From IMG/VR virus record IMGVR_UViG_3300028844_003737, positions 10,388 through 74,387 of that record: DNA of 64,000 bases. One strand, given 5' to 3'. The stretch's first letter is position 1. Each line of letters opens with the position of its first letter. Under the pieces are notes generated by a model that was not told the DNA's origin, ran no database searches, and saw only the letters and a list, made by a program, of their open reading frames with translations. Both the position numbers and the translations under genes were made by a program. Positions 2,844-27,354 of this stretch are shown here, piece by piece. This stretch comes from a virus.

Positions 2844-2915
2844 AAAAAAGGGTTCGATCTGATTTTTAGTTTCCACTATATTACAAACTTAAAAACTTTT
2901 ATGAACCCTTTTTTT
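2844..2915 (+). terminator. long hairpin/intrinsic terminator
   Basis: AAAAAAGGGTTC...GAACCCTTTTTTT with an inner imperfect stem. Confidence 0.65.
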
Positions 2916-2918
2916 GCC

Positions 2919-2948
2919 TTGACTTATATGCGATTTCTTTTGTAAGAT
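2919..2948 (+). promoter_or_regulatory. sigma70-type early promoter, probably giving a leaderless mRNA
   Basis: TTGACT-N18-TAAGAT; ATG at 2954 only 5 nt after the -10 box; no RBS. Confidence 0.55.
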
Positions 2949-2953
2949 CTTAT

Positions 2954-3481
2954 ATGAATAAATGTAAAAAATGTAATGAAACAATGGATAATCACAGAGC
3001 TCATCTTGGTTACTCCGAATGTGTTGAGTGTTCGACAGTAAAGAAATATTCATCGCATACTATATATCCACATAAAACTGGTGGGTATATCCAACCTGTA
3101 TCAGAAGAACAATCAGAAAATCTAAATAGGTTAGATAGAAGAGGTACATCTGGTAATAAACCAGCTAAAGGTATTGTAAAAGATAATAGTTGGGATAGGT
3201 GGTTGAAAGAATACTATGCTCCTAAACCAGAGAAGAAGAAGTTTGTACCTAAGCCTACGACACTACCTATTTATATACCTGTAAAGGAAGCTATGACTAA
3301 GGTGATGGATATGTATGAAAATAGGGGATATGATTCAGCATACGAACTAACACAATCATTGTATACCGATGATAAAATTTCACTTATGACTAAATCAAAG
3401 ATTACTAATGAGATAACTGAGTGGCAATATATGAGTGCTAAACAAAGAAGATGGCAAAAAAAACTGGAAATAAATGCATAA
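2954..3481 (+). CDS. hypothetical protein with N-terminal zinc finger
   Basis: CxxC...CxxC (CKKC/CVEC). Confidence 0.75.
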   Translation: MNKCKKCNETMDNHRAHLGYSECVECSTVKKYSSHTIYPHKTGGYIQPVSEEQSENLNRLDRRGTSGNKPAKGIVKDNSWDRWLKEYYAPKPEKKKFVPKPTTLPIYIPVKEAMTKVMDMYENRGYDSAYELTQSLYTDDKISLMTKSKITNEITEWQYMSAKQRRWQKKLEINA

Positions 3482-3520
3482 AGTCCTTGTTTATTAGCAA
3501 ATTTATTCGTAGCTTTATAT
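3464..3520 (+). promoter_or_regulatory. repeated early promoter
   Basis: CTGGAAATAAATGCATAAAGTCC-TTGTTT-N17-TAGCTT; near-identical copy at 5801, partial copies at 13473 and 17453. Confidence 0.8.
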
Positions 3521-3538
3521 ATAAAGAAAAGGGAAAAG

Positions 3539-5620
3539 ATGAGTAATTCAATAAAACATAATTTCAATCCGATGGCTCTCAGAGAGAAACATTCTGCTGA
3601 AAGTCGTACTAACAGCTATTCTTCTTTTTGGTTAGATAATGGTTGGGACAACAATACTTCTATATTTGACGATGAAGAAACTAAAAAGGGTGTAGATTTA
3701 GTCGCACTGGCTTCTTATCGTAGGGCTATCAGTAATTTCGTTTCTATCGTTACTGGTGAATCAGACATCAAAGTTACTTTCAATACTTCAGGCGATAGTT
3801 ATACTAATGGTAAAGAAGTTACTATCTCTTCTAAATTAGATGACAAACTATTTGACTCAACTGTTGGTCTGGCTTTGCATGAGGGTTCTCATATCAAACT
3901 TTCAGATTTTGATTTTCTAAAACAACTTGATACTAATATTCCAGCTGAGTATTTCAATAGAGGTGAAGCACTTGGAATGGAGAGATATGAAGTAATTGGT
4001 AAACTAAAAAATTTACTAAACTATGTAGAAGATAGAAGAATTGATTATTTTGTCTTTTCAAATTCACCGGGCTACAAAGGTTATTATCATAAGATGTATG
4101 AAAAATACTTTCATGCTAAGGTTATTGATAAGGCTTTAGGTTCTAATGAGTATACTTCAGTTGATTGGGATTCTTATGAATTTCGTATTATCAATCTCAC
4201 TAACAAAAATACTCTTTTGGATGTTCTGCCTGGTTTGAAAGATATCAGAAAAGCTATTTTCAGTAATGTAAAGAATTTAGATTCTACTGCTGAGGCTTTC
4301 GCTGTTGCTCTAAATGTCTTTGATATTATTCTTTCTAACTTAGAAGCCCAACCAAAAGTTGATGGTGGAAAAGGTGATGGCGAAGAGGGTGCTGATGGTT
4401 CTGAAAGTGGTGGTGATGAAAATGATATGGGTTCTAAAGGTGATGGTAATTCTGATGGTGAAGGCGAGTCAATGAGTGGTAAATCTTCAGAAAATCAGCC
4501 TGAGAATTCAAATTCTGATTTATCAGAATTATCAGACAGGCAGAAAAAACAACTTAGTAATGCTGTAAAGAAGCAGAAGAAATTTATGGATGGCGACATC
4601 ACTAAAAAGAAGCTAACTAAAAAAGATAAAGCTTCTATGGATGCTGTTGAATCTGCTGGAATGAAATATGTAGATGTTGCTAGTGGTGTTACAGATAATT
4701 ACTATGGTAAAAAAACTCCTACTAAAGTTTTATTGGTAAAGAAATTTACTAAAGCTCTAGCTGAGTCTGATACCATTCGTATGATTCAAACACCAAACTA
4801 CAGATGGGCTGGTGAAGAAACTAAAGAAGCTATTACTAAAGGTTTGGTAATGGGAACTATGTTAGGTCGTAAACTTCAAGTACGTGGAGAGTCTCGTGAG
4901 ACTAAGTGGTCTAGAAAAGATTCAGGCCGTATCGATAAGAGATTGATTGCTGAGTTAGGTTTTGGTAACCAGAGAGTTTTTCATACTTCATTTGTAGAAC
5001 AATATTCAGATGCTTTTCTTCACATCTCAGTTGATGCTAGTGGTTCGATGGGTGGAAAGAAGTGGGTAAATACTCAGACTTGTGTTGCTGCCATCGCTAA
5101 AGCTTGTTCAATGATTTCAAATGTTGATTGTGTAATTTCTTACAGAAGTACGCAGGATACTGGAAACTACAGACGTGGTGGTAAGAATTTCCCACTAATG
5201 ATGATTGCTTATGATTCTCGTGTTGATAAAATCAATAAAATCAAAAATCTATTTCCATTACTTCGTCCGAGTGGAACTACTCCTGAAGGATTGTGTTTTG
5301 AAGCGATTATGAAGGAAATTGAACCGGCATCTAAGGATAAGGATTCATACTTCCTAAACTTATCAGATGGAATGCCTATGTTTTCTAATGATGATATTGA
5401 CTATAACTATGATACGGCAATCAATCACACTAAGAGTATGGTAAATGAGATTCGTAATCGTGGTGTAAAAGTTCTTAGTTACTTCATTGGAGATAGTTAT
5501 GATAGGGATAGAAGTACTTCTACTTTCAAAAAGATGTATGGCTCAGATGCTGAGTTCATCAATGTGACTTCAGTACTTCCGGTTGCTAAAACAATGAATA
5601 AAAAGTTCTTACAAAAATAA
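3539..5620 (+). CDS. CobT-like metallopeptidase + VWA domain protein (MoxR partner)
   Basis: ALHEGSH (HExxH), NYVEDRRI, acidic Gly-rich linker, MIDAS DASGSM, GTTP, SDGMP. Confidence 0.85.
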   Translation: MSNSIKHNFNPMALREKHSAESRTNSYSSFWLDNGWDNNTSIFDDEETKKGVDLVALASYRRAISNFVSIVTGESDIKVTFNTSGDSYTNGKEVTISSKLDDKLFDSTVGLALHEGSHIKLSDFDFLKQLDTNIPAEYFNRGEALGMERYEVIGKLKNLLNYVEDRRIDYFVFSNSPGYKGYYHKMYEKYFHAKVIDKALGSNEYTSVDWDSYEFRIINLTNKNTLLDVLPGLKDIRKAIFSNVKNLDSTAEAFAVALNVFDIILSNLEAQPKVDGGKGDGEEGADGSESGGDENDMGSKGDGNSDGEGESMSGKSSENQPENSNSDLSELSDRQKKQLSNAVKKQKKFMDGDITKKKLTKKDKASMDAVESAGMKYVDVASGVTDNYYGKKTPTKVLLVKKFTKALAESDTIRMIQTPNYRWAGEETKEAITKGLVMGTMLGRKLQVRGESRETKWSRKDSGRIDKRLIAELGFGNQRVFHTSFVEQYSDAFLHISVDASGSMGGKKWVNTQTCVAAIAKACSMISNVDCVISYRSTQDTGNYRRGGKNFPLMMIAYDSRVDKINKIKNLFPLLRPSGTTPEGLCFEAIMKEIEPASKDKDSYFLNLSDGMPMFSNDDIDYNYDTAINHTKSMVNEIRNRGVKVLSYFIGDSYDRDRSTSTFKKMYGSDAEFINVTSVLPVAKTMNKKFLQK

Positions 5621-5633
5621 AGGAGAGATTGAG

Positions 5634-5786
5634 TTGAGTTTATTAGCATACAATAAAGAAGTACGAGATGAGATTGAAAAGCTGATTGAAGAGCATGTAA
5701 AGAAATCTAGAAGAGGTTATCCTTGGTCTGGTGAACATAAAGAAGTTACTAAAAAGATTATGAATATTTTTAGGAGAACTACTTAG
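5634..5786 (+). CDS. small hypothetical protein (50 aa, TTG start)
   Basis: RBS AGGAG at 5621; open frame MSLLAYNKEVRDEIEK...RRTT*. Confidence 0.5.
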   Translation: MSLLAYNKEVRDEIEKLIEEHVKKSRRGYPWSGEHKEVTKKIMNIFRRTT

Positions 5787-5800
5787 TGTACAAGAAAAAA

Positions 5801-5857
5801 CTGGAAATAATTGCAGAAAGTCCTTGTATATTAGCAAATTTATTCGTAGCTTTATAT
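5801..5857 (+). promoter_or_regulatory. repeated early promoter
   Basis: TTGTAT(5824)-ATTAGCAAATTTATTCG-TAGCTT(5847). Confidence 0.8.
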
Positions 5858-5897
5858 GTAAACAATGAGAGAAATACTAACAAAAGGAAAAAATAAT

Positions 5898-7049
5898 ATG
5901 GATAAAAACATAATCGTAAAAATTGAAAAGTCCGGCAATAGATATAATGCTTGGGACAAAGATGGTGTAAAATTTACATCACAGATTGGTACTTCTACCC
6001 GAAAGAAGGCTTTTCTAAGTAATATGGCTTTGGAACGTAGAACTGGTAAAGAAGGTAGAATTTACTGGTGGAAAGTTCCTATGGAGATGTTTGAATCTTC
6101 AATGGCTCCTGTAATCGATGTTTCATCTGTAGATGTTCCATCAGATCATGCTGAGGTTCTAAACTTCATTCACACTTCTTATAATCTCAAACCACAAGGT
6201 TTGGTTATGAAAGAACTGAAGTGGAAGTACTTAGTTCGTTCCGCTGTTCGTGGTAAGAATATTTTGATGACTGGTCCTGCTGGTTGTGGAAAAACTATGG
6301 CTGCTAAGTCATTAGTCAACTCACTTGATAGGGCTGACTTCTACTTCAACTTAGGAGCGACACAGGACCCAAGAGCTACTTTGATTGGTAATGTCCACTT
6401 CGATAAAAAGAAGGGTACTTTCTTTTCCGAATCAGTTTTTGTAAAGGCTATTCAAACTCCTAACGCTGTTATTTTGTTAGATGAGTTGAGTAGGGCTCAT
6501 CCTGATGCTTGGAATATTTTGATGACTGTCTTAGATAGTGGTCAGAGATATTTGAGACTTGATGAGGCTGATGGACAACAAACTATCAATGTGGCTGAAG
6601 GTGTTACTTTTGTTGCTACCGCTAATGTTGGTAATGAGTATACTTCTACCAGAGTTATGGATAAGGCTTTGATGGATAGATTCATTATCGTAGAAATGGA
6701 TGTTCTAAACTCTGATGAAGAGCATGGACTACTGAACTATATGTTTCCAAATGTAGATTCAGATTTACTGAAGTCTGTTGCTGAGATTGCTTCTTCAACG
6801 CGAAGTGAGTCAAAGTCTGAGGCTGGTAGGTTGTCTGCTGGAATCTCTACCAGAACTTCTGTTGAGATAGCTGGACTACTTTATGATGGCTTTGGATTAG
6901 ATGAGGCTGCTGAAGTAACTGTCTATCCTCAGTTTTCTGATGATGGTGGGCTTGAGTCTGAAAGAACTTATGTGAAACAACTTGTTCAAAAGTTTGTCTC
7001 TGATGGTTCTTCTGAGGACTTGTTCAATGAGGAAGAGATGAACAGCTAA
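5898..7049 (+). CDS. MoxR/CbbQ/CobS-family AAA+ ATPase
   Basis: Walker A GPAGCGKT, Walker B ILLDELSRA, ATAN, arginine finger MDRF; start taken after RBS AAAGGA. Confidence 0.9.
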   Translation: MDKNIIVKIEKSGNRYNAWDKDGVKFTSQIGTSTRKKAFLSNMALERRTGKEGRIYWWKVPMEMFESSMAPVIDVSSVDVPSDHAEVLNFIHTSYNLKPQGLVMKELKWKYLVRSAVRGKNILMTGPAGCGKTMAAKSLVNSLDRADFYFNLGATQDPRATLIGNVHFDKKKGTFFSESVFVKAIQTPNAVILLDELSRAHPDAWNILMTVLDSGQRYLRLDEADGQQTINVAEGVTFVATANVGNEYTSTRVMDKALMDRFIIVEMDVLNSDEEHGLLNYMFPNVDSDLLKSVAEIASSTRSESKSEAGRLSAGISTRTSVEIAGLLYDGFGLDEAAEVTVYPQFSDDGGLESERTYVKQLVQKFVSDGSSEDLFNEEEMNS

Positions 7050-7062
7050 ACAAATTCTCTCT

Positions 7063-7137
7063 GTGATGGTGGCAACTCATTCCACCATCACTATGGGCCT
7101 TGAGTTTTAATTTTCCTTTTTTCTCAGGGCCCATTTT
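7063..7137 (+). terminator. tandem GC-rich hairpins ending the MoxR unit
   Basis: GTGATGGTGG/CCACCATCAC (7063-7091) and ATGGGCCTTGAG/CTCAGGGCCCAT (7093-7134) followed by TTT. Confidence 0.65.
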
Positions 7138-7166
7138 CATAATCAAAAGGATGAAGGATATAACAT

Positions 7167-7397
7167 ATGAAAAAAATAATAGAAATGGTTTTAGAAAGAC
7201 ACAAAGACAGGCAAACAAATTTAGCATCGGAAGGTGCTAGAAAAGCAATAGCTGCTGAAATAGAAGCTGCTATTCTTAGTAATGAAGGGGATAAATATCC
7301 TACAGATAAAGATATAGATAATTATTTAGTAGAACAGTACAATAGAAATAGACCTACTGATGAACACATAACAAATTATTCGGAGATTCAAAAATGA
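7167..7397 (+). CDS. hypothetical protein
   Basis: ORF with RBS AAGGA. Confidence 0.65.
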   Translation: MKKIIEMVLERHKDRQTNLASEGARKAIAAEIEAAILSNEGDKYPTDKDIDNYLVEQYNRNRPTDEHITNYSEIQK

Positions 7398-7660
7398 CAT
7401 ACGAAGATTTTTTAGTAATGGCTCATAGAAGTACAGGACTTGAACCAAAATATAATGTTTATTTAGAATATGTAGAAGTTTTAGAATTTGTAAAAGCTTA
7501 CGCTAATAATAATTCTGATGTATTTTCTTATAAGAATACTATTTATAATAAGAAGATAACAATTGGCGAAGCTCAATCAATTCTAAAGAGAACTGAAAAA
7601 AAGAAGTTCGATAAAAATATTAGAATTTGTGCTCTCCAATTAGGCCTCAAATTACGATAG
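7394..7660 (+). CDS. hypothetical protein
   Basis: ORF overlapping previous stop; RBS GGAG. Confidence 0.65.
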   Translation: MTYEDFLVMAHRSTGLEPKYNVYLEYVEVLEFVKAYANNNSDVFSYKNTIYNKKITIGEAQSILKRTEKKKFDKNIRICALQLGLKLR

Positions 7661-7671
7661 GAGAAAAAGTT

Positions 7672-8175
7672 ATGGCTAAGAAACCAGCATCATTTGAGTA
7701 CAATGGTACTCTAGTAAAAGTTTTAGATGGAGATACAATCGATTGTTTTATCGATTTAGGTTTTGATTTGAAAATCAAAAAGCGAATTAGATATATGGGT
7801 ATTGATACTTGGGAATCAAGAACAAGAGACTTGGATGAAAAGGCAAAAGGTTTATTAGCTAAAGCTCGTAACAAAGAATTATTAGAGGCTGGAGTTTTCA
7901 AAATAGTATCTTACGGAACAGGTAAGTTCGGCAGGGTATTAGGTGAAATCTTTGTAGATCCATCAGCAGTTGGTCATGAAATATCAGAAAATGTTGATAG
8001 AAATAAAGATGGTTTGGTAAGTATAAATGACATTCTAATTGAAGAAGGTCATGCTTATGATTATCACGGTGGGAAGAAAAAAGATTTCAAAGCAGAAGCT
8101 AAGAAAGAGATTGACGCGGAAAAGAAAGGTAAGTCTAAAGATTTAGTTGACAAGCCATCGGAAGAAAATCAATAA
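7672..8175 (+). CDS. thermonuclease (SNase-like)
   Basis: VKVLDGDTID, IRYMGIDTWE, GKFGRVLG, INDILIEEGHA; start moved to ATG after AGGAG. Confidence 0.9.
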   Translation: MAKKPASFEYNGTLVKVLDGDTIDCFIDLGFDLKIKKRIRYMGIDTWESRTRDLDEKAKGLLAKARNKELLEAGVFKIVSYGTGKFGRVLGEIFVDPSAVGHEISENVDRNKDGLVSINDILIEEGHAYDYHGGKKKDFKAEAKKEIDAEKKGKSKDLVDKPSEENQ

Positions 8176-8178
8176 ATT

Positions 8179-9290
8179 ATGAAAAATAAAGTAAAGGGAA
8201 AAAGGTCACATGCCAACGAAGGAGAAAAAACAGAAGTGTTTGATTCCTGATTTAGAAATAATTCCTAAATTAGATCATATACTAACTGAAGAAGATGTAA
8301 AAGTATCATTATTAGAATTGAAGCGGAGAGTGGGTGCTCCAAAAATAAGTTTTAGGAAAAAGAGATGAGTGAATTAGAAGAGTCTGTATTGCGGAGCCAG
8401 ACAATTCTTATGATGGCTCGTAACGATAAAAATAGTAAGATGGTAAAAAGAATTCTAAAAAGATTTATGAAATTTGTAACTAGCAAATGAGGTTGTAATG
8501 TCAAAGAAAAACAAGAGTCAATGGAAAGACTATAAAACATACACACTTAGTGATGGTACTAAATTTTTAGCACGTGATGATAGTGATGCTAAATTGTATC
8601 GTTCAAAGGTCGGAGATGAAGGATAAATGTGTAGTCTGTAAAAAAGATTCTCATCACAATAAAGACGAACACATAAAAGTTCGTATCGGATACATCGAAG
8701 GTTCAGGACAATTATGCTTGAATTGTTATGATGATATTTATAATATAAAAAAAAGCAGAGGTAAAAATGATAATAAAAATAATAGTACCATACGCTACTG
8801 AAAGTTCATCTCAGACTTGTAGATATATGAGGTTTGACAGTGAATAAAAGTAAGTGTGAAGTTTTACAGACAGTAACTACTGTAGACGGAACTCTTTATG
8901 AGGGTGAAGTTGTTACTGTTCAAGACAAAGAAAAAAATGGCGATATAAGAGTCAAGGATACTATGGGAAAAATATGGTACATAAAAGATGATATTTTAAA
9001 GTCGATGGAAGGAAAATAAAATGACTAAATTTGAAGAAGTAATTCATAATCTTACCAACTTTATAGTTGGCGAACAGAAAGAAGAAGTAGAAGTGTCTGC
9101 TAAAATACAAGTAGGATTTACTGCTCCTAAAAAGAAACGAAAGTATACAAGAAGGAAGAAAGTCAATGCCAGCAAAAAGAAGTAGTGATAGAACACCTAA
9201 GATCATATCCTTACTAAAAAAAATGGAAAAACGATATGATATAATAGCTGAGTCTTTAGAAAAAATTGAGAAGAAATTGGAGAAAATAAA
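8179..9290 (+). other. cluster of short overlapping ORFs (about 40-62 aa), including 8616-8801 (Cys-rich) and 8834-9019 (SH3-like beta pattern)
   Basis: Consecutive small plus-strand ORFs with RBS-like motifs and stop/start overlaps. Confidence 0.5.
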
Positions 9291-9535
9291 TGAAAACAGC
9301 TAAATACTTTAGTGCTGTTTGGTGTGGGCCTTGTAAACAATTCAAGCCTATAATGGAAGAGTTATCTAATGAAGGATATAATATAGAGTTTATAGATGGT
9401 GATGAGAACAAACAAATGGCTATTGATGCTAATATTCGTTCAGTACCAACAACGCTTATTATGGATGGTGATAAAGAAGTAAATCGTATTGTCGGTGTGA
9501 GGAGTAAAGAAGAAATGATCAAGGAACTTTCATAA
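9290..9535 (+). CDS. trxA: thioredoxin
   Basis: FSAVWCGPCK active site; IRSVPT cis-Pro motif. Confidence 0.9.
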   Translation: MKTAKYFSAVWCGPCKQFKPIMEELSNEGYNIEFIDGDENKQMAIDANIRSVPTTLIMDGDKEVNRIVGVRSKEEMIKELS

Positions 9536-10128: not shown

Positions 10129-10164
10129 TTGATTATATTTATTAGTATCTAATGGAGAACTCAT

Positions 10165-11132: not shown

Positions 11133-11141
11133 GAGATAATA

Positions 11142-19180: not shown

Positions 19181-19186
19181 CATATT

Positions 19187-19552: not shown

Positions 19553-19594
19553 CTGGACTTTTTACTTGTATATATGCTCAAAAATGTGTAGCTT
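19553..19594 (+). promoter_or_regulatory. repeated early promoter
   Basis: CTGGACTTTTT shared with the 17453 copy; TTGTAT(19566)-N17-TAGCTT(19589). Confidence 0.75.
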
Positions 19595-19620
19595 TATATA
19601 TAATGAAAGAGGAAAATAAA

Positions 19621-20214: not shown

Positions 20215-20256
20215 AAATAAAATTGTATTTCAGGTATTATATAGATATATATTATT

Positions 20257-20328
20257 GCGGGTGAAGTGTTATAGGAAACACACTTCGATACCATCGAAGA
20301 GATGTAGGTTCGACTCCCACCACCCGCT
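20257..20328 (+). tRNA. tRNA-Gly with ACC anticodon
   Basis: Acceptor GCGGGTG/CACCCGC with U73; D stem GTGT/ACAC; anticodon stem CTTCG/CGAAG, loop AT-ACC-AT; 4-nt variable loop; TTCGACT T-loop; one T-stem mismatch. Confidence 0.85.
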
Positions 20329-20390
20329 CAAACTTTCGGCCATCAAAGGCTATTTACTAATTACTAATTGAATATTTATAGGAAAATGTT

Positions 20391-21584
20391 ATGAGTTTCA
20401 CCGACTTTTTTGACGAACCCAAGTTTGACTTCGAAGCTGAACGTAAGAAGTTTATCGATAATTTAGACTATCTAAAGTCTATGTCTGTTCAAGAACAAAC
20501 GCTTTATAAAAAATGGTTAGAGTTCAATGCTGATGTCTATTCTATGACTCAGAAAGCTCCACACTTTTCTAAGATAGAGAAATCTATTTGGACACCAAAA
20601 GATATAAATAATAAAGAACAAACTATCAAAGAGATAGAAGCCTTAGAACCTTATGTTGAGATGACAGAACAAGGTAACACTAAACATAATGAAGAGTGGA
20701 CATTGGTTCGTAGGTTGATTCATACTATGGAATTTACTGCTAATCCTGGCAGAAATGTAAAGTTCTATGTAAAAGATAAAGTAACTAAAAAGATTTTAGG
20801 TATTATATGTTTAGGCTCTGATGTAACATCATTGGGAGCTAGAGATAATTTTATTGGTTGGACAAAAGATAATAAGTTCAAAGATGGTAAATTGAAATAT
20901 ACTTCCATCGGTACTACTATTTGTTGTGCTCAACCATTAGGTTTTAATTTTTTGGGGGGTAAGTTAGTAGCCGCTTTAGTAACTTCATCGGTTGTAAGAG
21001 ACGCTTGGAAGAAACTATACGGGCAGACACTTGTTGGACTATCAACTACATCGCTATACGGAATACATTCTATGTATAACTCTATACCACTTTGGAGAAC
21101 TATGGGTTCTTCTAAAGGTAGGATTGCGCTAAAGCCTGACGATGAGACTTATGATATATGGCACCAGTGGTTGAAGGAAAATAAAGAAGAAGAGTACTTA
21201 GCGGCTACTACACAAAAAGAGGGCGTTGCTGGTCCTCCAACTGGAGTAAAACAAAAGACAATCAATTTGATTTTCAAAGCAGTTGGAATCAAAGCATCTG
21301 AATATCAACACGGATTCAAACGTGGTATTTACTTTGCTGATATCTATGAAAATGGTAAAGAGTTTTTGCGTGGTGAGATAGAAGAAAAAGATTTGAAGAT
21401 GAAGAAAAAGTATGTCGAAGATTCTGATTATATTATGAAGTGGTGGAAACCAAAGGCTATCAAGAGATATAGTAAGTTATTTGATGAAGGTAGACTAAAG
21501 CCAGAAAAACTTTTCTATGGTGATATCGTAGGAACTGAATGGGAAGAAACAAAGAAAAAGTATTTAGGAGAAGTAGGTAGATGA
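20391..21584 (+). CDS. DUF4338 (DruA-like) protein
   Basis: PGRNVKFYV, LGARDNFIGW, QPLGFNFLGGKLVAAL, TTSLYG..SMYN. Confidence 0.8.
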   Translation: MSFTDFFDEPKFDFEAERKKFIDNLDYLKSMSVQEQTLYKKWLEFNADVYSMTQKAPHFSKIEKSIWTPKDINNKEQTIKEIEALEPYVEMTEQGNTKHNEEWTLVRRLIHTMEFTANPGRNVKFYVKDKVTKKILGIICLGSDVTSLGARDNFIGWTKDNKFKDGKLKYTSIGTTICCAQPLGFNFLGGKLVAALVTSSVVRDAWKKLYGQTLVGLSTTSLYGIHSMYNSIPLWRTMGSSKGRIALKPDDETYDIWHQWLKENKEEEYLAATTQKEGVAGPPTGVKQKTINLIFKAVGIKASEYQHGFKRGIYFADIYENGKEFLRGEIEEKDLKMKKKYVEDSDYIMKWWKPKAIKRYSKLFDEGRLKPEKLFYGDIVGTEWEETKKKYLGEVGR

Positions 21585-22372
21585 TATTAGAAAATAAAGA
21601 TTGTTTAGAATTTTTATCAGAGTTAGATACAGAATCAGTAGATTTAGTTCTAACAGACCCACCTTACTTTATAGGTTATGATGGTGGTAAGGGCTGGGAT
21701 TCTGCTTGGGACAGTGAAGAAGAATATTTAGACTGGTGCATGAAGTGGAGTGAAGAATGTGTAAGAGTCTTGAAACCTAGTGGGTGTATGTATGTTTGGG
21801 GTACTACTAAAACCGATACATTTTTGAAATATAAATTAGATATTCTAAACTCTTTTGAAGATATGGTTTACCAAAGTTGGATAATATGGTCTTATGATTG
21901 GGGTGGTAGAACGAAGAAAAACTTTGCTAGAAAGCATGAGGACTTACTTATGTATTCTAAAGGTAAAGAGTTTATGTTCAATAGAGACGATATTAGAATT
22001 CCTTATATTATGAAAAAAAGTGTTCGTAAAGGAACAGAACTAAATCCACTTGGTAAGATACCAACTGATGTTTGGCCTAAAAATAATCATACAACATCAA
22101 AAGAATATGCTGGATGGCATCCAACTCAAAAGCCAGTTGAGTTATTGGAAAGAATTATAAAAGCTCATACAAATCCTCATGATGTAGTATTAGATATATT
22201 CAATGGAAGTGGAAGTACTACTATAGCTTGTGCTAATACTCAAAGAGATTTCTTAGGGTGCGAGTTAGATAAAGAATATTATGATAAGTCTCTGAAGAGA
22301 ATTGATGAGTTGACTGGTATTGGTAAGTTTACAAGTAATAAACTAATTGATATTTTAGGAAAAAGTACTTGA
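21581..22372 (+). CDS. amino (N6-A/N4-C) DNA methyltransferase, beta class
   Basis: Motif IV TDPPY near the N-terminus, HPTQKP, motif I LDIFNGSGST near the C-terminus. Confidence 0.93.
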   Translation: MILENKDCLEFLSELDTESVDLVLTDPPYFIGYDGGKGWDSAWDSEEEYLDWCMKWSEECVRVLKPSGCMYVWGTTKTDTFLKYKLDILNSFEDMVYQSWIIWSYDWGGRTKKNFARKHEDLLMYSKGKEFMFNRDDIRIPYIMKKSVRKGTELNPLGKIPTDVWPKNNHTTSKEYAGWHPTQKPVELLERIIKAHTNPHDVVLDIFNGSGSTTIACANTQRDFLGCELDKEYYDKSLKRIDELTGIGKFTSNKLIDILGKST

Positions 22373-22397
22373 CTTTTAGCATAATTATTTGTAGCTT
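22369..22397 (+). promoter_or_regulatory. repeated early promoter
   Basis: TTGACT-N17-TAGCTT. Confidence 0.75.
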
Positions 22398-22424
22398 TAG
22401 ATATAATAAAATGGAAAATAAAAA

Positions 22425-24317
22425 ATGAATAACAGAAAACCATTCAATAAACTTTTCAACAATGTTCTATCATCTGCTAAACCACCTGAAGAAAAGGGTT
22501 TGGGTGTAAGAGTAGAAGGTAAGGGTAGAACTGAGGCTAGAGAAGTTTCACTCACACCTCAGATAATTGAGGATATATTCAACGAACAAGATGGAAAGTG
22601 TGCTTTATCAGGAGCTGATTTAGACTTAGATGCTTTGTACATACCTAACAGTCCATTAGCACCATCTATCGATAGGATATCTAATAACTATGGATACCAT
22701 CGTGATAATGTTCATATCGTTCTAAGATTTGTAAATATGGGTCGTGGAAAAAGTGAAGTAAATGAAGCTGTAGCAGCTATAAATTCTATAAAAGCTGCAG
22801 ACTATGAAATTGGGCCTTGGTACTTTCCACCTATACCATACGATGAACTATTCTATAAACCTATAGCTAATTCTCTTGAAGCAGCTCAGTTGGGTTTGAT
22901 AAATATCTTACAAGCACCGATGGGTGCTGGTAAAACTTACACAGCATTCATGCATCTTATTCCTGAACTGATTACTAAAAAGGATGTTGATGTAATATGG
23001 TTCTTTGCTCCAAATTGTGACAACATACCTAAGGATGAGTTCAATGATTATTTGGATGAGTGGTATGGGGATGAACGATTTGAGGGTATGAATCTTAGAA
23101 AGATAAAGATAATAAAAGTTGGTGGTCTTAATGCAAGACCTTGGAGAGAAGCAAAGAAAAAAATTAGAGATGGTTATACAACTATATTTATTTCTACCGA
23201 TGCCACTATAGGTAAAGTGCTCTTAGAAAAAGATACATATGAACCAACTGAAGATTATAAATACTTGAAGTCTTTAGGGCAAAGGTTTGCTTTACTGAGA
23301 GATGAAATACACTATGGTTCTGTATCGGATAAGAAACTATTGAAAAAGGTTATGGGTGGTTCTGAGAACGAAAAGTATAAAGCCAGAATGTACAATGTTA
23401 TGTCTGAGTTTACGGAAGTTACTCCTTGGGTATTTGGGTTTTCAGCAACACCAACATCAGAACAAATAGAAGAAGAAGTTGGAACAAGTAAGTATCAAAT
23501 AATAAATGGTTGGGTTTCTCCAAAAGATTGTATAGCAAATAGTGCTTGGATAGGTAATATCTATCAAACATTAGATTTGAAAAAGTATTGTGATGATAAT
23601 TATATGATGAAGTCTTTGAGGAGACTAATGTCTCGTGTAGAAAGTAGAAGTCTGATTATGGATAAGATGGTAGAATCAAACTCAAAGGACTTTCCAATAC
23701 TAAATAAACTGATAACTAAAACTACTGGTATGATAAAGGTTGATGTTGGAAGTGATAAAGAACATAAAGCATGTTTGTATAGAGTAAAAAAACTTTTAGT
23801 AAAAGCTGGTATTCCAAGTGATTGGACATTCATTGAAACTACTGCAGATGGATGGGTAGAGTATAATTCAAAAGGTAGAGTTGAACAAAAGAATACAGGT
23901 CTTGGATGGTTGAGTGAAATAAATGATCCAAATAGTTCTGCTAGATTACTTGTTGTTGTGAATAAAGGTGATAAAGGTATAAATGTACCTACACTAACAG
24001 ATGGATTGATTTTTAGAAATCCAACACCAAGAGACAAAGAGTTAGGTATTTGGATTGTTAGAAATCCATTACAATTATTAGGTAGATGGGTTCGTAAGAA
24101 TTGGGGTGGTTTATCTTTAGAGGAAATAAATTCTCTATCAAGAGAAATAAGCTATCAAATTTTTTCTCAACTAAACACTTTTGATATTGAGGTACCAGAT
24201 ACACCACAATGGAAACAGACTATCGAAGAGTTTACACATCCAGTAAATGGTTATGCTGTAAGTGCTATAGATATATTAGGTTATGAATTTCAATGGCAAA
24301 GAAAAAAGACTGCATGA
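22425..24317 (+). CDS. HNH-like nuclease domain fused to SF2 (restriction-type) helicase/ATPase
   Basis: N-terminal CALSG...SIDRISNNYGY..DNVHIV...N; helicase motifs QAPMGAGKT, FFAPN, DEIH, SATP, GINVP, QLLGRWVR. Confidence 0.8.
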   Translation: MNNRKPFNKLFNNVLSSAKPPEEKGLGVRVEGKGRTEAREVSLTPQIIEDIFNEQDGKCALSGADLDLDALYIPNSPLAPSIDRISNNYGYHRDNVHIVLRFVNMGRGKSEVNEAVAAINSIKAADYEIGPWYFPPIPYDELFYKPIANSLEAAQLGLINILQAPMGAGKTYTAFMHLIPELITKKDVDVIWFFAPNCDNIPKDEFNDYLDEWYGDERFEGMNLRKIKIIKVGGLNARPWREAKKKIRDGYTTIFISTDATIGKVLLEKDTYEPTEDYKYLKSLGQRFALLRDEIHYGSVSDKKLLKKVMGGSENEKYKARMYNVMSEFTEVTPWVFGFSATPTSEQIEEEVGTSKYQIINGWVSPKDCIANSAWIGNIYQTLDLKKYCDDNYMMKSLRRLMSRVESRSLIMDKMVESNSKDFPILNKLITKTTGMIKVDVGSDKEHKACLYRVKKLLVKAGIPSDWTFIETTADGWVEYNSKGRVEQKNTGLGWLSEINDPNSSARLLVVVNKGDKGINVPTLTDGLIFRNPTPRDKELGIWIVRNPLQLLGRWVRKNWGGLSLEEINSLSREISYQIFSQLNTFDIEVPDTPQWKQTIEEFTHPVNGYAVSAIDILGYEFQWQRKKTA

Positions 24318-25570
24318 TGAGAAAATTTTTTGAAGAATCAGACGAAAGTAGAGAATATAAATATAGGTGTTTGGTATATCCTAATATAACCTTTCAGAAG
24401 GACTTTACTAAGGATAGTTATTATATTATAATGTCTAACATACTAAAGTATTTGACAGCGCTGAGAGAGGATATACACTTTACAGTGCTTACTCCAGAAA
24501 TAATGCCTGGCTTTCAATATGAGAATACTGAACAAGTTCTTTACAAACAACCAACTTATCCAAATGAGATGAGACAACATTTCGATACTTATCAACTGAA
24601 AAAGATTACCGACTATAAAACTAAAGATTGGGATTTTGTATATTGTTATTTACCTGAACATGCGCTACAATTAGAAAATCATTTCAACAATATGACTAAT
24701 TGTAGACCTATTATATTTGGTTATGATGCTTATATAGAAATACCAAAGACGACTGGTTATGAGTCAAGTTTACTTAGACAGCATTATGCTGGCTTGATGT
24801 CTATGAATAGTGTTGGTGTAAATTCACAGGCAGTAAAAGATACTATTATAGAACACGCACCAAGTTGTTTACCTGATAAAGATGTAGAGGTACTAAAAGA
24901 TAAGATAAAACCTTTACCTCGTGGTTGGGATAATGTAGAAGGCCCAAGAAAAAAACCAAACTCAGAGTCTAAAGTAATTGTTTGGAATCATAGGGCTAAT
25001 AGTTACAAAAGCTATCCTTGGTTCTTACAACAGATGGATAAGTTATGGGAACAAAGAAAAGATTTTACAGTATGGGTGCCGCTAGCTGATTCAATAGATA
25101 GAGAATATATCTATAATGATAAATTTGATAGACAAGGATACTTTACAGAACTATCTAAGTGTTGGGTAGGTGCTTGTGGACAATCACATCATACAGGATG
25201 GGCTAACTCTGCTTCCGATGGTATGGCTGTTGGTGTACCTTATATCTTTTATGATGCTGATTACTACTCACAATATGCTGAGGATGCTGGTATCTACTTC
25301 AAAAAAGATGAAGAGTTCATAAAAGAAATGAATAATATATTAGATGACGAAGATTATAGAAATTTATATTCTGAGAAATCAGAGACATTGGGAAAGCAAA
25401 ACTCTTGGGAAGTTGTGGATTATATCCACAAAATTGGCTCAGTAACAAAAAAGCAGCTGTTAGAATATATTGGATGGGGTAGAGGAATACCTTTCAATAT
25501 CTACAGAAATAGACTTAGAACTGAACCTACAATAATATTAACTAAATATGGATATGAGGTAAGAAAATGA
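24314..25570 (+). CDS. GT-B glycosyltransferase, possibly DNA-modifying
   Basis: VIVWNHR...KSY, GW..SASDGMAVGVPYI (GT4-like); short basic C-terminal extension; ATGA overlap with helicase. Confidence 0.75.
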   Translation: MMRKFFEESDESREYKYRCLVYPNITFQKDFTKDSYYIIMSNILKYLTALREDIHFTVLTPEIMPGFQYENTEQVLYKQPTYPNEMRQHFDTYQLKKITDYKTKDWDFVYCYLPEHALQLENHFNNMTNCRPIIFGYDAYIEIPKTTGYESSLLRQHYAGLMSMNSVGVNSQAVKDTIIEHAPSCLPDKDVEVLKDKIKPLPRGWDNVEGPRKKPNSESKVIVWNHRANSYKSYPWFLQQMDKLWEQRKDFTVWVPLADSIDREYIYNDKFDRQGYFTELSKCWVGACGQSHHTGWANSASDGMAVGVPYIFYDADYYSQYAEDAGIYFKKDEEFIKEMNNILDDEDYRNLYSEKSETLGKQNSWEVVDYIHKIGSVTKKQLLEYIGWGRGIPFNIYRNRLRTEPTIILTKYGYEVRK

Positions 25571-26334
25571 AACAGCTAACAGAAAAACAGATAGTAGAAA
25601 ATTGGGAAAGCCTAATGAAACTTATCGAAGATACATTTGAAGGAGAACGTAAAGAGAAACTCTTAGGAATGTATAAGTATTTCGAAGATAGAATGTCAGT
25701 AGCGCCTGCTAGTGGAAAAGCACATTACCATAATGCTATGGTGGGTGGATATGTAGAGCATGTATTGCATGTTACAAATTGCGCTTTGAAGATAAAAAAG
25801 TTATGGGTTGAAGATGGTGCTACAATAAACTTTACAGACGAAGAACTTATCTTCGCTGCTATGCATCATGACTTGGGTAAGGTTGGTGACTTAGAAGAGG
25901 ATTACTATATACCACAAGATTCGGAATGGCATAGAAAGAATCAAGGTTCTATATTCAAACACAATCCGAAACTACAGTATATGTCTGTTACTGATAGAGC
26001 ATTATTTATTTTACAGCACTTCGGAATACCAATGTCGGAATGGGAATATATTGGATTGAGACTTACGGATGGAATGTATGAAGAAGCTAATAAGACATAT
26101 TATATGAATTATAATCCTGATTGGTCTTTAAAGTCTAATATAGCTTACATACTTCATCAGGCTGATATGATGGCTACTCATATTGAGGGTGACGAATGGA
26201 ATAGATTAGACGAAGAATCAAATGTAAAGGTTGCTACTAATATGAAAAAAGCAGTAGAAACAAAAACTGATGATAGTGATAGATTGAAAACTAAATCAGC
26301 TGATTTATTTGAAGAACTATTTGGAGAAAAATAA
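25567..26334 (+). CDS. HD-domain phosphohydrolase (YhaM-like)
   Basis: APAS...HNA..GGYVEH, HHDLGK, LHQAD. Confidence 0.88.
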   Translation: MKQLTEKQIVENWESLMKLIEDTFEGERKEKLLGMYKYFEDRMSVAPASGKAHYHNAMVGGYVEHVLHVTNCALKIKKLWVEDGATINFTDEELIFAAMHHDLGKVGDLEEDYYIPQDSEWHRKNQGSIFKHNPKLQYMSVTDRALFILQHFGIPMSEWEYIGLRLTDGMYEEANKTYYMNYNPDWSLKSNIAYILHQADMMATHIEGDEWNRLDEESNVKVATNMKKAVETKTDDSDRLKTKSADLFEELFGEK

Positions 26335-26600
26335 TGATGATTCTGGAAATAATCCTTGTATTATTGGCACTTTTATGTGTAGCTTCTTGTTATGGATTAT
26401 GGAACACTATGAAAAAGATGGAAATGATGGAAGATTGGATAGATGAATATAGTACGAGAATGTTGAATGTAAACAAAACCATAAAACAACTTGACTATAA
26501 AGATTACTTTGCTGAAGATGATGAGGTAGGAATTATATTCAAAGAAATAGAAAAAGCAGTTAATGAACTAGAAATAGAAAAGGAGCCTGTAAGTGGGTAG
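26334..26600 (+). CDS. membrane-anchored hypothetical protein
   Basis: N-terminal TM, coiled coil, DDEVG. Confidence 0.7.
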   Translation: MMILEIILVLLALLCVASCYGLWNTMKKMEMMEDWIDEYSTRMLNVNKTIKQLDYKDYFAEDDEVGIIFKEIEKAVNELEIEKEPVSG

Positions 26601-27354
26601 AAAAGCAAAAAAAGGAAGTAGTAGATATTACTTCACAATGGATACTGAAAAAGCAATTATCAGATACAATAATGCACCAGACAAACCTAGATTGAGAAAT
26701 ACGATATACAATGAGCATATCAGAAAGTCTTTTGAAAAGTTAGTTGAGAACATTATTCATACATTTAAGTTCTACTACTTTGATGTATCGTCTGAAGAAG
26801 TAAAGCATGAAGTCGTTTCTTTCTTAGTAATGAACATGCATAAATTCAAAGAGGGTAAAGGTAGGGCATTCTCTTATTTTAGCATTGTTGCTAAAAATTA
26901 CCTTATCCTAAATAATAATAAAAACTATAAGATGGGTAAGATTCATTCACAAATGGATGTATTAGATTATAAGAGAAATACACAAAGTGAAAGGTCTGCT
27001 GAGGCTGCTAGTGAAAGTGCTTCTTTATTTATAGATGAGTTACATAGGTTTTGGGATACCAACCTTACTAATGTTTTCAAACGACAAAAAGACATTAGGG
27101 TAGCTGATTCTGTATTACATATTTTTCGTATAAAAGAAAATATTGAGAACTTCAATAAGAAGGCTCTTTATATTCTTATTCGTGAAATGACAGGCTCTAA
27201 TACACAGCACATTACTCGTATTATCAATGTTATGAAAAAGTTCAATGATAGGTTATATCATGAGTTTGATAACTATGGTACAGTTGATATTTCATATACA
27301 GGCTCTTTAGTAAGAGAAAAAGATAATCCATTGGATATACAAGCTACTTACTAA
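26593..27354 (+). CDS. phage sigma factor (sigma70 region 2, gp55-like late sigma)
   Basis: KLVENIIHTFKF...EVVSFL..MHKF..GKGRAFSYFSIVAKNY resembles sigma region 2.1-2.4; GTG start after AGGAG. Confidence 0.7.
   Translation: MGRKAKKGSSRYYFTMDTEKAIIRYNNAPDKPRLRNTIYNEHIRKSFEKLVENIIHTFKFYYFDVSSEEVKHEVVSFLVMNMHKFKEGKGRAFSYFSIVAKNYLILNNNKNYKMGKIHSQMDVLDYKRNTQSERSAEAASESASLFIDELHRFWDTNLTNVFKRQKDIRVADSVLHIFRIKENIENFNKKALYILIREMTGSNTQHITRIINVMKKFNDRLYHEFDNYGTVDISYTGSLVREKDNPLDIQATY

What the first reader, a model, noticed from the sequence alone, without database searches (positions are those of the whole stretch)
2893..27354. Near-complete avoidance of TTAA in the early region, relaxed in structural modules
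Seen by eye: no TTAA between 2893 and 7106, and only isolated sites (e.g. 8996, 14033, 18085, 20944, 23128) over long stretches after that. About one per 80 bp is expected at roughly one-third A and one-third T. Synonymous choices visibly dodge it (ATC-AAA, TTC-AAA, CTA-AA, GTA-AA), while AATT, ATAT and TATA are abundant. GATC and TGCA also look scarce here. TTAA rises to several per kb at 1.2-2.9 kb, at 35-38.5 kb and in the fibre genes. Inference: strong selection by a TTAA-cutting (MseI-like) nuclease, from the host or the phage's own endonuclease at 19621. The gradient marks either first-exposed DNA or recently acquired modules.
Basis: partly seen in the sequence, partly recalled or inferred. 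Interest (0 to 1): 0.75.

Follow-up and report, generated by a model that had tools for sequence, protein, structure and literature searches.

The report
Phage TTAA purge tied to R-M cassette
This widespread, uncultured ocean phage has silently recoded away most copies of the DNA word TTAA, and the loss goes together with a restriction-enzyme and methylase gene pair that the phage itself carries, so this is restriction-site avoidance with an unusually clear cause.

Summary
The window holds 130 TTAA, against 758 expected from base composition and 482 from a trinucleotide model. In the block 2954-28982 observed/expected (O/E) is 0.11; on either side it is 0.33-0.40. The depletion survives synonymous-codon shuffling (z = -24). 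It shows directly in context-dependent codon choice: Leu TTA is used 12% of the time before A-starting codons and 59% elsewhere.

The depletion is specific to the 4-mer, whatever the flanking bases. It is not a property of the phage group. About 70 relatives (67-89% aa identity) keep normal TTAA levels. Only two sub-lineages purged it, largely independently, and both carry a PvuII-fold nuclease plus a beta-class N6-adenine methylase that non-avoiders lack.

Across 20 independent phage lineages, orthologues of this methylase track TTAA loss (p = 5e-8; TTAA ranks first of 136 words). The association correctly predicted TTAA loss (O/E 0.15) in the cultured cyanophage S-BM3.

Best reading: a TTAA-specific (MseI-type) restriction-modification conflict, probably involving the phage's own enzyme. 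Uneven purging probably reflects mosaic module history.

The "early versus structural" gradient is patchy, and its cause is unresolved. Other agents of this scan noted the same gene pair and TTAA-free blocks in T4-like cyanophages.

The parts
1..64000 (.). Window-wide TTAA avoidance. It extends through the 10.4 kb upstream on the same contig.
   Evidence: 130 observed against 482 Markov-2 expected. Synonymous shuffle O/E 0.27, z = -24. In columns aligned to four non-avoiding relatives, G000 has about 4-fold fewer TTAA, while AATT, TATA and ATAT counts are equal.
2954..28982 (+). Block of strongest TTAA avoidance (O/E 0.11). Sub-blocks at 2.9-9.4 kb and 14.1-25.6 kb are almost TTAA-free (0.03 and 0.05), with a less depleted patch at 9.4-14.1 kb (0.28).
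   Evidence: Gene-level Poisson segmentation and regional tests. Context-dependent codon use within the block.
19603..20214 (+). Candidate Type IIP restriction endonuclease (203 aa) with a PD-(D/E)XK motif and a PvuII-like fold. It lies between two tRNA genes.
   Evidence: Invariant D71 and E81-x-K83 across 14 homologues. AlphaFold2 model with pLDDT 84; the top Foldseek hits are all PvuII (E = 4e-6, probability 1.0), followed by Eco15I/NhoI and DpnI. Its homologue overlaps the methylase orthologue by 4 bp in L107 and L119. It is absent from non-avoiders G002-G005.
21581..22372 (+). Beta-class N6-adenine DNA methyltransferase (263 aa). TTAA specificity is inferred, not shown.
   Evidence: Pfam N6_N4_Mtase, E = 8e-57. 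The closest solved structures are M.MboIIA and M.RsrI. The DPPY and FNGSGST motifs are intact. No orthologue (only partial matches, 51% identity or less) in 36 related contigs. Orthologues track TTAA loss.
20391..21584 (+). DruA/DUF4338-like backbone gene lying between the nuclease and the methylase. Its stop overlaps the methylase start by 4 bp.
   Evidence: Pfam DruA, E = 1.5e-25. It is present in non-avoiding relatives at 61-86% aa identity, so it is not part of the inserted pair.
19108..19181 (+). tRNA-Ala(TGC), flanking the nuclease gene on its upstream side.
   Evidence: ARAGORN.
20257..20329 (+). tRNA-Gly(ACC), flanking the nuclease gene on its downstream side.
   Evidence: ARAGORN.
22425..24317 (+). 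HNH endonuclease fused to an SF2 helicase. This is a variable insertion directly after the methylase.
   Evidence: PHROG endonuclease/HNH hits and Pfam ResIII. Absent from G002-G005 and from L106. One metatranscriptome contig joins 22353 to 24340 and so skips the gene.
1256..2889 (+). TTAA-richer patch (9 sites, 5.5/kb) over the pilin genes and a non-coding stretch.
   Evidence: Positions. The genes at 117-1749 are 93-94% aa identical to non-avoider G002, while neighbouring genes are 50-60%. Nucleotide identity of 84-86% is the highest of any segment. This fits a more recent exchange with a TTAA-normal lineage.
35103..38519 (+). TTAA-richer patch (17 sites, 5/kb) inside the 2279-aa protein gene.
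   Evidence: Positions. The 95.8%-identical strain L220 shares 21 of 25 sites across the wider aligned stretch 32000-41599. More distant relatives L221 and L222 are also depleted (0.28 and 0.19). No TTAA-normal donor was found.

Best explanation
The TTAA shortage comes from selection against a 4-bp restriction site, not from composition. It is tied to a TTAA-specific (MseI-type) restriction-modification pair that the phage itself carries: a PvuII-fold nuclease (19603-20214) and a beta-class N6-adenine methylase (21581-22372).

Proposed mechanism (inferred). The nuclease cuts unmethylated TTAA in host or rival DNA. The methylase marks the phage's own TTAA sites. Because methylation of fast-replicating phage DNA is never complete, every remaining site is a liability. 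The lineage has therefore removed sites by synonymous recoding: NTT to NTA or NTC before AAx, and Leu TTA to CTA or TTG before A. A host enzyme of the same specificity may add to the pressure.

The uneven depth of the purge most likely reflects mosaic history. Modules that have lived longest with the cassette are almost TTAA-free, and modules exchanged with TTAA-normal relatives are less purged.

Shown: the depletion, its specificity, the synonymous route, its restriction to certain lineages, the nuclease fold and motifs, and the methylase-TTAA association.
Inferred: TTAA specificity of both enzymes, that the phage enzyme (rather than a host one) is the main agent, and the history explanation for the patchiness.
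For: (1) Depletion is robust to trinucleotide and synonymous-shuffle models and is visible as context-dependent codon choice.

(2) All ten NTTAAN contexts but CTTAAG (3 sites in G000, 21 in the relatives; ratio 0.79) are depleted to 0.10-0.40 of the density in relatives. One-mismatch neighbours sit at 0.9-1.4.

(3) About 70 relatives around the AAA-ATPase gene have Markov-2 O/E of 0.75-1.03. Only L035 (contig G001) is at 0.09. Whole contigs G002-G005 carry 22-61 TTAA per 5 kb, against 1-23 here.

(4) Where relatives have TTAA, this phage has TAAA 16%, TCAA 12%, CTAA 10.5% and TTGA 9%. These are synonymous third-position or Leu first-position changes.

(5) The nuclease, the methylase and the HNH-helicase gene are the genes absent from all four non-avoiders. 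None of 36 related contigs has a methylase orthologue, including one that is 95% complete. The second avoiding lineage (G006) has the nuclease and methylase as a 4-bp-overlapping operon and a TTAA O/E of 0.12.

(6) The purge in G000 and G006 is largely independent. Of 43 ancestral sites lost in both, 33 were replaced by different words.

(7) Twenty independent IMG/VR clusters with methylase orthologues (51% identity or more) have a median TTAA O/E of 0.52. Twenty-two clusters with distant homologues have 1.01. TTAA is the top discriminating word of all 136 4-mer classes (p = 5e-8). In G009, TTAA is the only depleted palindrome (0.48).

(8) Out-of-sample prediction: Synechococcus phage S-BM3 (methylase 63% identical) has 46 TTAA against 311 expected in 100 kb. 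Mel-JY01 (36% homologue) is at 1.02.

(9) The nuclease has a PvuII fold and a conserved D...ExK motif. The MseI family is classed as PD-(D/E)XK (PMC2441816). TTAA m6A methylases exist in nature, for example M.Sth20745I, and TTAA methylation is seen in aquatic Chloroflexi MAGs (PMC6329791, PMC8919816).

(10) Module history. G000 and L106 share an 84-88% nt block (20.2-27.3 kb) containing the methylase that is TTAA-poor in both. Eleven of 17 sites lost in both carry identical replacement words. Beyond 27.4 kb identity drops to 72-76%, L106 has more TTAA, and replacements mostly differ.
Against: No biochemical or methylome evidence gives the specificity of either enzyme. No reference MseI or M.MseI sequence was available for comparison.

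S-BM3 is as depleted (0.15) as the carriers of both genes, yet has no detectable homologue of this nuclease. Contigs G007 and G008, which carry only the methylase, are also depleted (0.64 and 0.42). The phage nuclease is therefore not required for TTAA loss, and a host or other enzyme must act at least there.

Some orthologue carriers are not depleted (L114, L120, L123-L125, L128: 0.8-1.3).

The local minimum around the cassette is not significant in G006 (within 20 kb 0.10, beyond 0.14, p = 0.22) and is absent in orphan-methylase carriers.

Inside the block, the nearest sampled relatives of G000 are TTAA-normal phages at divergences similar to those outside the block. Residence time alone is therefore not demonstrated.

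Residual sites are as conserved as control words, so the purge does not seem to be progressing now.
Confidence: 0.6

Rival explanations
1. A host-encoded MseI-type restriction enzyme is the selective agent. The phage methylase is an extra shield picked up against that host enzyme. The small nuclease has another role, or a different specificity.
For: Strong TTAA loss occurs without this nuclease family: S-BM3 at 0.15, G008 at 0.42 and G007 at 0.64. TTAA m6A methylation, and therefore TTAA systems, exists in aquatic bacteria (PMC6329791, PMC8919816, PMC4752239). Classical phage site avoidance is host-driven.
Against: In this phage group both independent avoiding lineages carry an intact nuclease as well as the methylase, as an overlapping operon in G006. 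None of 36 related contigs has the methylase orthologue, and the nuclease is absent from the four non-avoider contigs compared gene by gene. No host genome or host TTAA enzyme was identified. This rival needs an unobserved enzyme in very different hosts (a cyanobacterium, and the unknown hosts of phages with 33-51% GC).
Confidence: 0.25
2. The near-TTAA-free block is under position-dependent selection. It would be DNA that is exposed unprotected, because it enters first or is replicated or expressed before protection is in place, as in the first-step-transfer DNA of phage T5.
For: The block is sharply bounded (2954 to about 28982) and 3-fold more depleted than its flanks, at similar divergence from TTAA-normal relatives. 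Other agents of this scan report TTAA-free blocks holding the same kind of cassette in T4-like cyanophages; those notes are unchecked.
Against: The block is interrupted by a patch at ordinary depletion (9.4-14.1 kb, 0.28). In G006 the cassette, and the lowest TTAA density, lie among different genes. The orthologues of this block sit elsewhere in G006 at that genome's average depletion. Genome ends and packaging mode are unknown because the contig is about 40% complete. The block boundary near 27.4 kb coincides with a drop in identity to L106, which points to a recombination junction.
Confidence: 0.15
3. The methylase recognises some other site. It co-occurs with TTAA loss only because phages sharing a host pool share both traits.
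For: Specificity is inferred only from association. Several orthologue carriers are not depleted. Specificity in beta-class methylases can change with few substitutions (established knowledge).
Against: TTAA is the single best discriminating word of 136. The next best are its one-mismatch substitutes. The carriers span 33-51% GC and include both T4-like cyanophage and Mel-JY01-like backbones, which is hard to reconcile with one shared host pool. In G009, TTAA is the only depleted palindrome.
Confidence: 0.15
4. No nuclease is involved. The shortage stems from codon usage, mutational bias, DNA-structural constraints, or avoidance of TTAA-targeting transposons.
For: TA-containing words are generally somewhat rare. 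In one reading frame TTAA overlaps a stop codon.
Against: Depletion survives codon-aware and trinucleotide models and is also present in non-coding DNA. Relatives with the same composition, codon usage and gene content are not depleted. TTAG, CTAA, TAAA and TCAA rise in compensation. m6A is not mutagenic (established knowledge).
Confidence: 0.03

Closest known systems
Restriction-site (short palindrome) avoidance in phages and in genomes that carry R-M systems (Gelfand & Koonin 1997; Rocha et al. 2001; Rusinov et al. 2018, cited from my own knowledge)
   Same: A short palindromic Type II recognition word is strongly under-represented and was removed by synonymous changes. Other 4-bp palindromes (GATC, CATG, ACGT, CTAG, TGCA) are depleted as well.
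   Different: The avoided word can be tied to a particular gene pair carried by the phage itself. The purge is confined to sub-lineages within a densely sampled phage group, it happened at least twice largely independently, and its depth varies by module.
MseI / Tru9I class Type IIP R-M systems (TTAA) and TTAA m6A methylases such as M.Sth20745I
   Same: The word affected is exactly TTAA in every flanking context. The methylase is an N6-adenine enzyme, as TTAA methylation is m6A (PMC6329791). The MseI family is predicted to be PD-(D/E)XK (PMC2441816), like this nuclease.
   Different: No sequence comparison with MseI, M.MseI or M.Sth20745I was possible here. The nuclease's closest solved fold is PvuII (CAGCTG). 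The genes sit in a lytic-type phage, split by a tRNA gene and a backbone gene.
Chlorovirus Type II R-M pairs (e.g. CviAII/M.CviAII), in which the virus degrades host DNA while its own DNA is methylated (own knowledge)
   Same: The virus carries a small Type II nuclease plus a cognate-looking methylase. The plausible role is to attack host or rival DNA.
   Different: Chloroviruses rely on methylation. Here the genome has also lost 70-95% of its target sites.
First-step-transfer DNA of phage T5/BF23, which lacks EcoRI sites
   Same: A contiguous part of the genome is much poorer in a restriction site than the rest.
   Different: There is no evidence that this block is at a genome end or enters first. 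The block is interrupted. The matching genes in relatives are TTAA-normal, and in the second avoiding lineage (G006) they are not its most depleted stretch.

Membership tests
Restriction-site avoidance | Word under-represented relative to composition-aware and codon-aware null models | tested here: met
   Markov-2 O/E is 0.27 for the window and 0.11 for the block. Synonymous shuffle gives z = -24. Conditional codon-use tests give p < 1e-60.
Restriction-site avoidance | The word is the recognition site of a known restriction specificity, and the effect is specific to that word | tested here: met
   TTAA is the MseI/Tru9I site (established knowledge). All NTTAAN contexts but CTTAAG (too rare to judge: 3 sites) are depleted, and neighbouring words are not. 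Depletion of 6-mers is explained by the embedded 4-mers.
Restriction-site avoidance | Avoidance correlates with exposure to a cognate R-M system | tested here: met
   It co-occurs with the nuclease and methylase within the group. The association holds across 20 lineages. The S-BM3 prediction was confirmed. Cognate specificity itself is inferred, not measured.
Restriction-site avoidance | A cognate nuclease activity is demonstrated in the host or the phage | not testable with these tools
   This needs enzyme assays or methylomes. The host is not identified.
Type IIP restriction-modification system | Nuclease with a restriction-enzyme fold and an intact catalytic motif | tested here: met
   PvuII is the top structural match (E = 4e-6, probability 1.0). 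D71 and E81-x-K83 are invariant in 14 homologues.
Type IIP restriction-modification system | Methyltransferase with intact SAM-binding and catalytic motifs | tested here: met
   DPPY followed by FNGSGST, in the beta-class order. Pfam N6_N4_Mtase, E = 8e-57. M.MboIIA and M.RsrI are the closest structures.
Type IIP restriction-modification system | R and M genes adjacent or co-transcribed | tested here: inconclusive
   In the window they lie 1.4 kb apart, separated by tRNA-Gly and a DruA-like backbone gene. In L107-L110/G006 and in L119 the homologues overlap by 4 bp. In G009 they are 13 kb apart.
Type IIP restriction-modification system | R and M share one recognition sequence | not testable with these tools
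   Inferred only from gene linkage and TTAA loss.
MseI family (R.MseI / M.MseI homologues) | Sequence homology to R.MseI or M.MseI | not tested
   No reference sequence was available in the tools. The nuclease has no Pfam, NCBIfam or PDB sequence hit and only 19 unnamed metagenomic homologues.
T5-type first-step-transfer region | The site-free segment lies at the genome end that enters first | not testable with these tools
   The contig is linear and about 40% complete, with no ends defined.
T5-type first-step-transfer region | The same segment is site-free in related phages | tested here: not met
   Orthologous segments of about 70 relatives have normal TTAA levels. In G006 the orthologues of this block are not that genome's most depleted part.

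The most novel reading that the evidence does not exclude
A TTAA-cutting restriction-modification cassette circulates among unrelated marine phages (this Mel-JY01-like group and T4-like cyanophages) as a phage weapon against host or co-infecting DNA. Each genome that acquires it is then forced into a convergent, genome-wide synonymous purge of TTAA. On this reading, the TTAA density of each module records how long that module has lived with the cassette. Orphan copies of the methylase in other phages would be defences against phage-borne, not host-borne, restriction.
Probability: 0.35. Interest if true: 0.7.

Novelty: new variant of a known kind. Interest (0 to 1): 0.55.

Why it matters
Restriction-site avoidance is textbook, but the enzyme responsible is rarely identifiable. 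Here there is a dense set of natural relatives: about 70 TTAA-normal, and two lineages that purged independently. Together with a portable gene pair, they turn the phenomenon into a natural experiment. It shows how fast and by which codon changes a phage recodes under a single-site pressure. It gives a sequence-only way to predict a methylase's specificity, and that prediction was validated on the cultured phage S-BM3. It also suggests that phages themselves, not only hosts, may impose restriction pressure in the ocean. Direct tests are possible: the phage is widespread (near-identical DNA in 13 marine sequencing studies, 2014-2025), and S-BM3 can be grown in the laboratory.

Tried and rejected
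- Megablast of 12 kb against GenBank phages found nothing.
- The search for related loci with the nuclease found no IMG/VR relative. tblastn on the methylase loci then found 31-41% homologues.
- The nuclease has no hit in Pfam, NCBIfam, PDB sequences or GenBank phages.
- The genome-contig scan with the methylase gave only MAG contigs that look viral or chimeric. L186 has a 92% identical methylase at the end of a 55% GC contig, with a GC drop at that point. No bacterial R-M context was obtained.
- Supplements of PMC8919816 are not held.
- A general local TTAA minimum around the methylase was rejected: across 20 lineages, near 0.53 against rest 0.56, p = 0.07. In G006 the distance effect is not significant, p = 0.22.
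- A recent import from a TTAA-normal donor as the explanation for the 35-38.5 kb patch is not supported: the closest relatives there are themselves depleted.
- Residual sites being mostly newly arisen is rejected: they are shared with relatives as often as control words.
- Extra 5-mer or 6-mer avoidance beyond the embedded 4-mers was not found.
- Read-laying used contigs only, so it says nothing about expression or methylation. A weak joint skipping 17496-20250 was ignored.
- The host assignment (SAR406) from earlier notes was not checked.

Full report
**What the window is**

The window is bases 10388-74387 of a 74,387-bp IMG/VR viral contig judged about 40% complete. All long ORFs lie on the + strand. 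The nearest cultured relative is Microcystis phage Mel-JY01 (48-56% aa identity), followed by Flavobacterium phage immuto. Near-identical DNA occurs in marine metagenomes and metatranscriptomes of 13 studies from 2014 to 2025. Earlier notes of this scan call it an ocean phage with a probable SAR406 host; I did not test that.

**Checking the observation**

TTAA occurs 130 times in 64 kb.
- Expected for the whole window: 758 (mononucleotide), 690 (dinucleotide), 482 (trinucleotide model).
- Region 2893-27354: 19 observed against 177 expected, O/E 0.11. The rest of the window is at 0.35.
- Permuting synonymous codons within each of 81 genes keeps protein sequence and per-gene codon usage. That null is conservative, because codon usage already reflects the avoidance. 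It still gives 139 observed against 514 +/- 15 (z = -24).
- Under the same null, ATAT, TATA, TTAT and ATAA are unaffected, and TTAG, CTAA, TTAC and GTAA are enriched.

Codon choice depends on the next codon:
- F/I/V/L codons ending in TT are 9.4% before AAx and 45.8% before other A-starting codons.
- Leu TTA is 12% before A and 59% elsewhere. Inside the block these fall to 4.9% and 2.5%.

Non-coding DNA is depleted as well (20 observed, 59 expected).

**Specificity**

All ten NTTAAN contexts but the rare CTTAAG (3 sites) are reduced to 0.10-0.40 of their density in relatives. Every one-mismatch neighbour sits at 0.9-1.4. Depletion of 6-mers is explained by the embedded 4-mers. GATC, CATG, ACGT, CTAG and TGCA are also depleted. 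GATC, CATG and CTAG are low across the whole phage group. TTAA, and partly TGCA, are particular to this phage.

**Regional pattern**

Gene-level Poisson segmentation gives three segments (binomial p = 2e-7):

| Segment | O/E |
|---|---|
| -10373..2360 | 0.40 |
| 2954..28982 | 0.11 |
| 28995..62749 | 0.33 |

- The whole contig is depleted, not only this block.
- The block is patchy: 2.9-9.4 kb at 0.03, 9.4-14.1 kb at 0.28, 14.1-25.6 kb at 0.05.

The labels "early" and "structural" are not established. The block holds lysis, peptide deformylase, UvdE and DNA-modification genes. The downstream part holds baseplate genes but also a SbcC-like nuclease.

**Relatives show that TTAA loss is not a group property**

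A scan with the AAA-ATPase (5865-7049) returned 191 relatives, of which 80 were kept (67-89% aa identity). In the roughly 70 loci long enough to score, TTAA Markov-2 O/E is 0.75-1.03. The one exception is L035 at 0.09.

Each sub-lineage shows its own set of near-zero palindromes (ACGT, GATC, CTAG, GTAC, CATG, TCGA, GCGC), a kind of avoidance barcode.

Four whole contigs of non-avoiders (G002-G005, 70-85% nt identity) have 22-61 TTAA per 5 kb, against 1-23 here. In aligned columns this phage has about 4-fold fewer TTAA, while AATT, TATA and ATAT counts are equal.

Where a relative has TTAA, this phage has TAAA (16%), TCAA (12%), CTAA (10.5%) or TTGA (9%). These are the synonymous changes NTT to NTA or NTC before AAx, and Leu TTA to CTA or TTG. 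This rules out composition, codon usage, mutational bias and structural explanations.

**The linked genes**

Gene-by-gene comparison shows that three adjacent or nearby genes are missing from all four non-avoiders: 19603-20214, 21581-22372 and 22425-24317.

*The methylase, 21581-22372.*
- It is an intact beta-class N6-adenine methylase: Pfam N6_N4_Mtase, with DPPY followed by FNGSGST.
- The closest structures are M.MboIIA and M.RsrI.

*The nuclease, 19603-20214.*
- It has no family hit and only 19 unnamed metagenomic homologues.
- Those homologues share an invariant D...E-x-K motif.
- The AlphaFold2 model (pLDDT 84) matches PvuII endonuclease first (E = 4e-6), then Eco15I/NhoI and DpnI.
- It lies between tRNA-Ala and tRNA-Gly.

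*Arrangement in other phages.*
- In L107-L110 (contig G006, the same avoidance barcode as L035) and in L119, the nuclease homologue (31-41% identity) overlaps the methylase orthologue by 4 bp. That is a typical R-M operon.
- In this phage and its closest cassette-bearing relative L106, the two genes flank a tRNA and a DruA-like backbone gene that non-avoiders also have.
- None of 36 related contigs, one of them 95% complete, holds a methylase orthologue.

**Association beyond this phage group**

- IMG/VR contigs with methylase orthologues (51-90% identity, 33-51% GC) are frequently TTAA-depleted. Contigs with distant homologues (33% identity or less) are all at 0.83-1.17.
- After clustering into independent lineages (20 against 22), TTAA is the best discriminating word of all 136 4-mer classes: median 0.52 against 1.01, p = 5e-8. 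The next words are its one-mismatch substitutes.
- Whole contigs: G006 0.12, G008 0.42, G009 0.48 (the only depleted palindrome in that genome), G007 0.64.
- As an out-of-sample test, the only GenBank phage with an orthologue, Synechococcus phage S-BM3 (63% identity), was predicted to be depleted. It has 46 TTAA against 311 expected in 100 kb. Mel-JY01, with a 36% homologue, is at 1.02.

The literature fits this reading:
- TTAA m6A methylation and its methylases are known: M.Sth20745I, aquatic Chloroflexi MAGs, and Arthrobacter (PMC6329791, PMC8919816, PMC4752239).
- The MseI family is classed as PD-(D/E)XK (PMC2441816).
- I found no paper describing TTAA avoidance linked to a phage-borne pair.

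**Independent purges and module history**

*G000 against G006.* At 47 positions where two or more non-avoiders have TTAA, G000 and G006 have both lost 43. They use different replacement words at 33 of these, which indicates largely independent purges.

*G000 against L106.*
- The two share an 84-88% nt block (window 20.2-27.3 kb) containing the methylase, and it is TTAA-poor in both.
- Within the genes of 17.0-27.4 kb, which include that block, 11 of 17 sites lost in both carry the same replacement word.
- Beyond 27.4 kb identity drops to 72-76%, L106 has more TTAA, and replacements mostly differ.

*The pilin patch.* The TTAA-richer pilin patch (1.2-2.9 kb) is the segment most similar to a TTAA-normal phage: 93-94% aa identity to G002, against 50-60% for its neighbours.

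These results favour module history as the cause of the unevenness. The support is limited for five reasons.
- A cassette-centred minimum is not significant in G006 (p = 0.22).
- It is absent in orphan-methylase carriers.
- No TTAA-normal donor was found for the 35-38.5 kb patch.
- Inside the block, the nearest sampled relatives are TTAA-normal at divergences similar to those outside it.
- Residual sites are as conserved as control words, both between strains and between relatives. The purge therefore looks old and stalled, as expected if the methylase protects what remains.

**Host enzyme or phage enzyme?**

Within this group, both avoiding lineages carry an intact nuclease as well as the methylase. 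That makes the phage's own enzyme the most economical agent. Against that, S-BM3, G007 and G008 are depleted without a detectable homologue of this nuclease. So another TTAA-cutting enzyme, from a host, a rival phage or an unrelated family, must act at least in those cases. My estimates are about 0.6 for the composite best explanation and 0.25 for a purely host-driven version.

The entry-order (T5-like) idea for the block cannot be tested on an incomplete contig. It is weakened by G006, where the cassette and the TTAA minimum lie among different genes.

**Relation to earlier scan notes**

After I had reached the cassette link independently, a look-up showed that other agents had reported the same kind of nuclease and beta-class methylase pair, TTAA-free blocks and TTAA loss in T4-like cyanophages. 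Those notes are unchecked leads. My S-BM3 result agrees with them.

**Verdict**

This is a real, strong, selection-driven avoidance of TTAA. It is a known kind of phenomenon, found here in an unusually informative form: specific to certain lineages, arisen at least twice largely independently, and tied to a portable phage-borne restriction-modification pair of inferred TTAA specificity. The specificity, the identity of the main cutting enzyme and the cause of the patchiness remain inferences that simple experiments can settle.

Noticed in passing
L002-L081 (IMG/VR relatives around the AAA-ATPase gene): Each sub-lineage of this phage group has its own set of almost absent 4-bp palindromes: ACGT, GATC, CTAG, GTAC, CATG, TCGA, GCGC or CCGG at O/E 0.00-0.1. 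This looks like an avoidance barcode that may report the restriction repertoire each lineage meets.
   Followed up: partly
L130-L185 (contigs with methylase homologues of 33% identity or less): Nearly all of these AT-rich phage contigs have no CATG, and most have no GATC, while TTAA is normal. A different clade of the same methylase family may therefore go with a different avoided word.
   Followed up: no
window 22425-24317: The HNH-endonuclease/SF2-helicase gene directly after the methylase is variable. It is absent from relative L106, and one marine contig joins 22353 to 24340 with 29 other letters in between.
   Followed up: partly
L186 (MAG contig CAJWMQ010000068.1, labelled Verrucomicrobiales): A 92%-identical copy of the methylase sits at the very end of a 55% GC contig. 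GC falls to 33-41% over the last 1.9 kb. This is either a chimeric assembly or a recent transfer into a bacterium.
   Followed up: partly
window 117-1749: The pilin-like genes are 93-94% aa identical to relative G002, while flanking genes are only 50-60% identical. This suggests a recent exchange of that cassette between phage lineages.
   Followed up: partly
window, whole: TGCA is a second word depleted specifically in this phage (93 observed, 211 expected; O/E 0.44). The four non-avoider relatives are at 0.77-1.08. Unlike TTAA, it shows no block structure.
   Followed up: no
G027 (contig of L042), about 2.7-5.5 kb: One 40-kb relative carries four methylase-like genes in a row. G016 and G017 carry another methylase and have no ACGT or GCGC. 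These are further candidate links between a methylase and an avoided word.
   Followed up: no
window 20257-20329: ARAGORN calls a tRNA-Gly with the unusual anticodon ACC immediately downstream of the nuclease gene.
   Followed up: no
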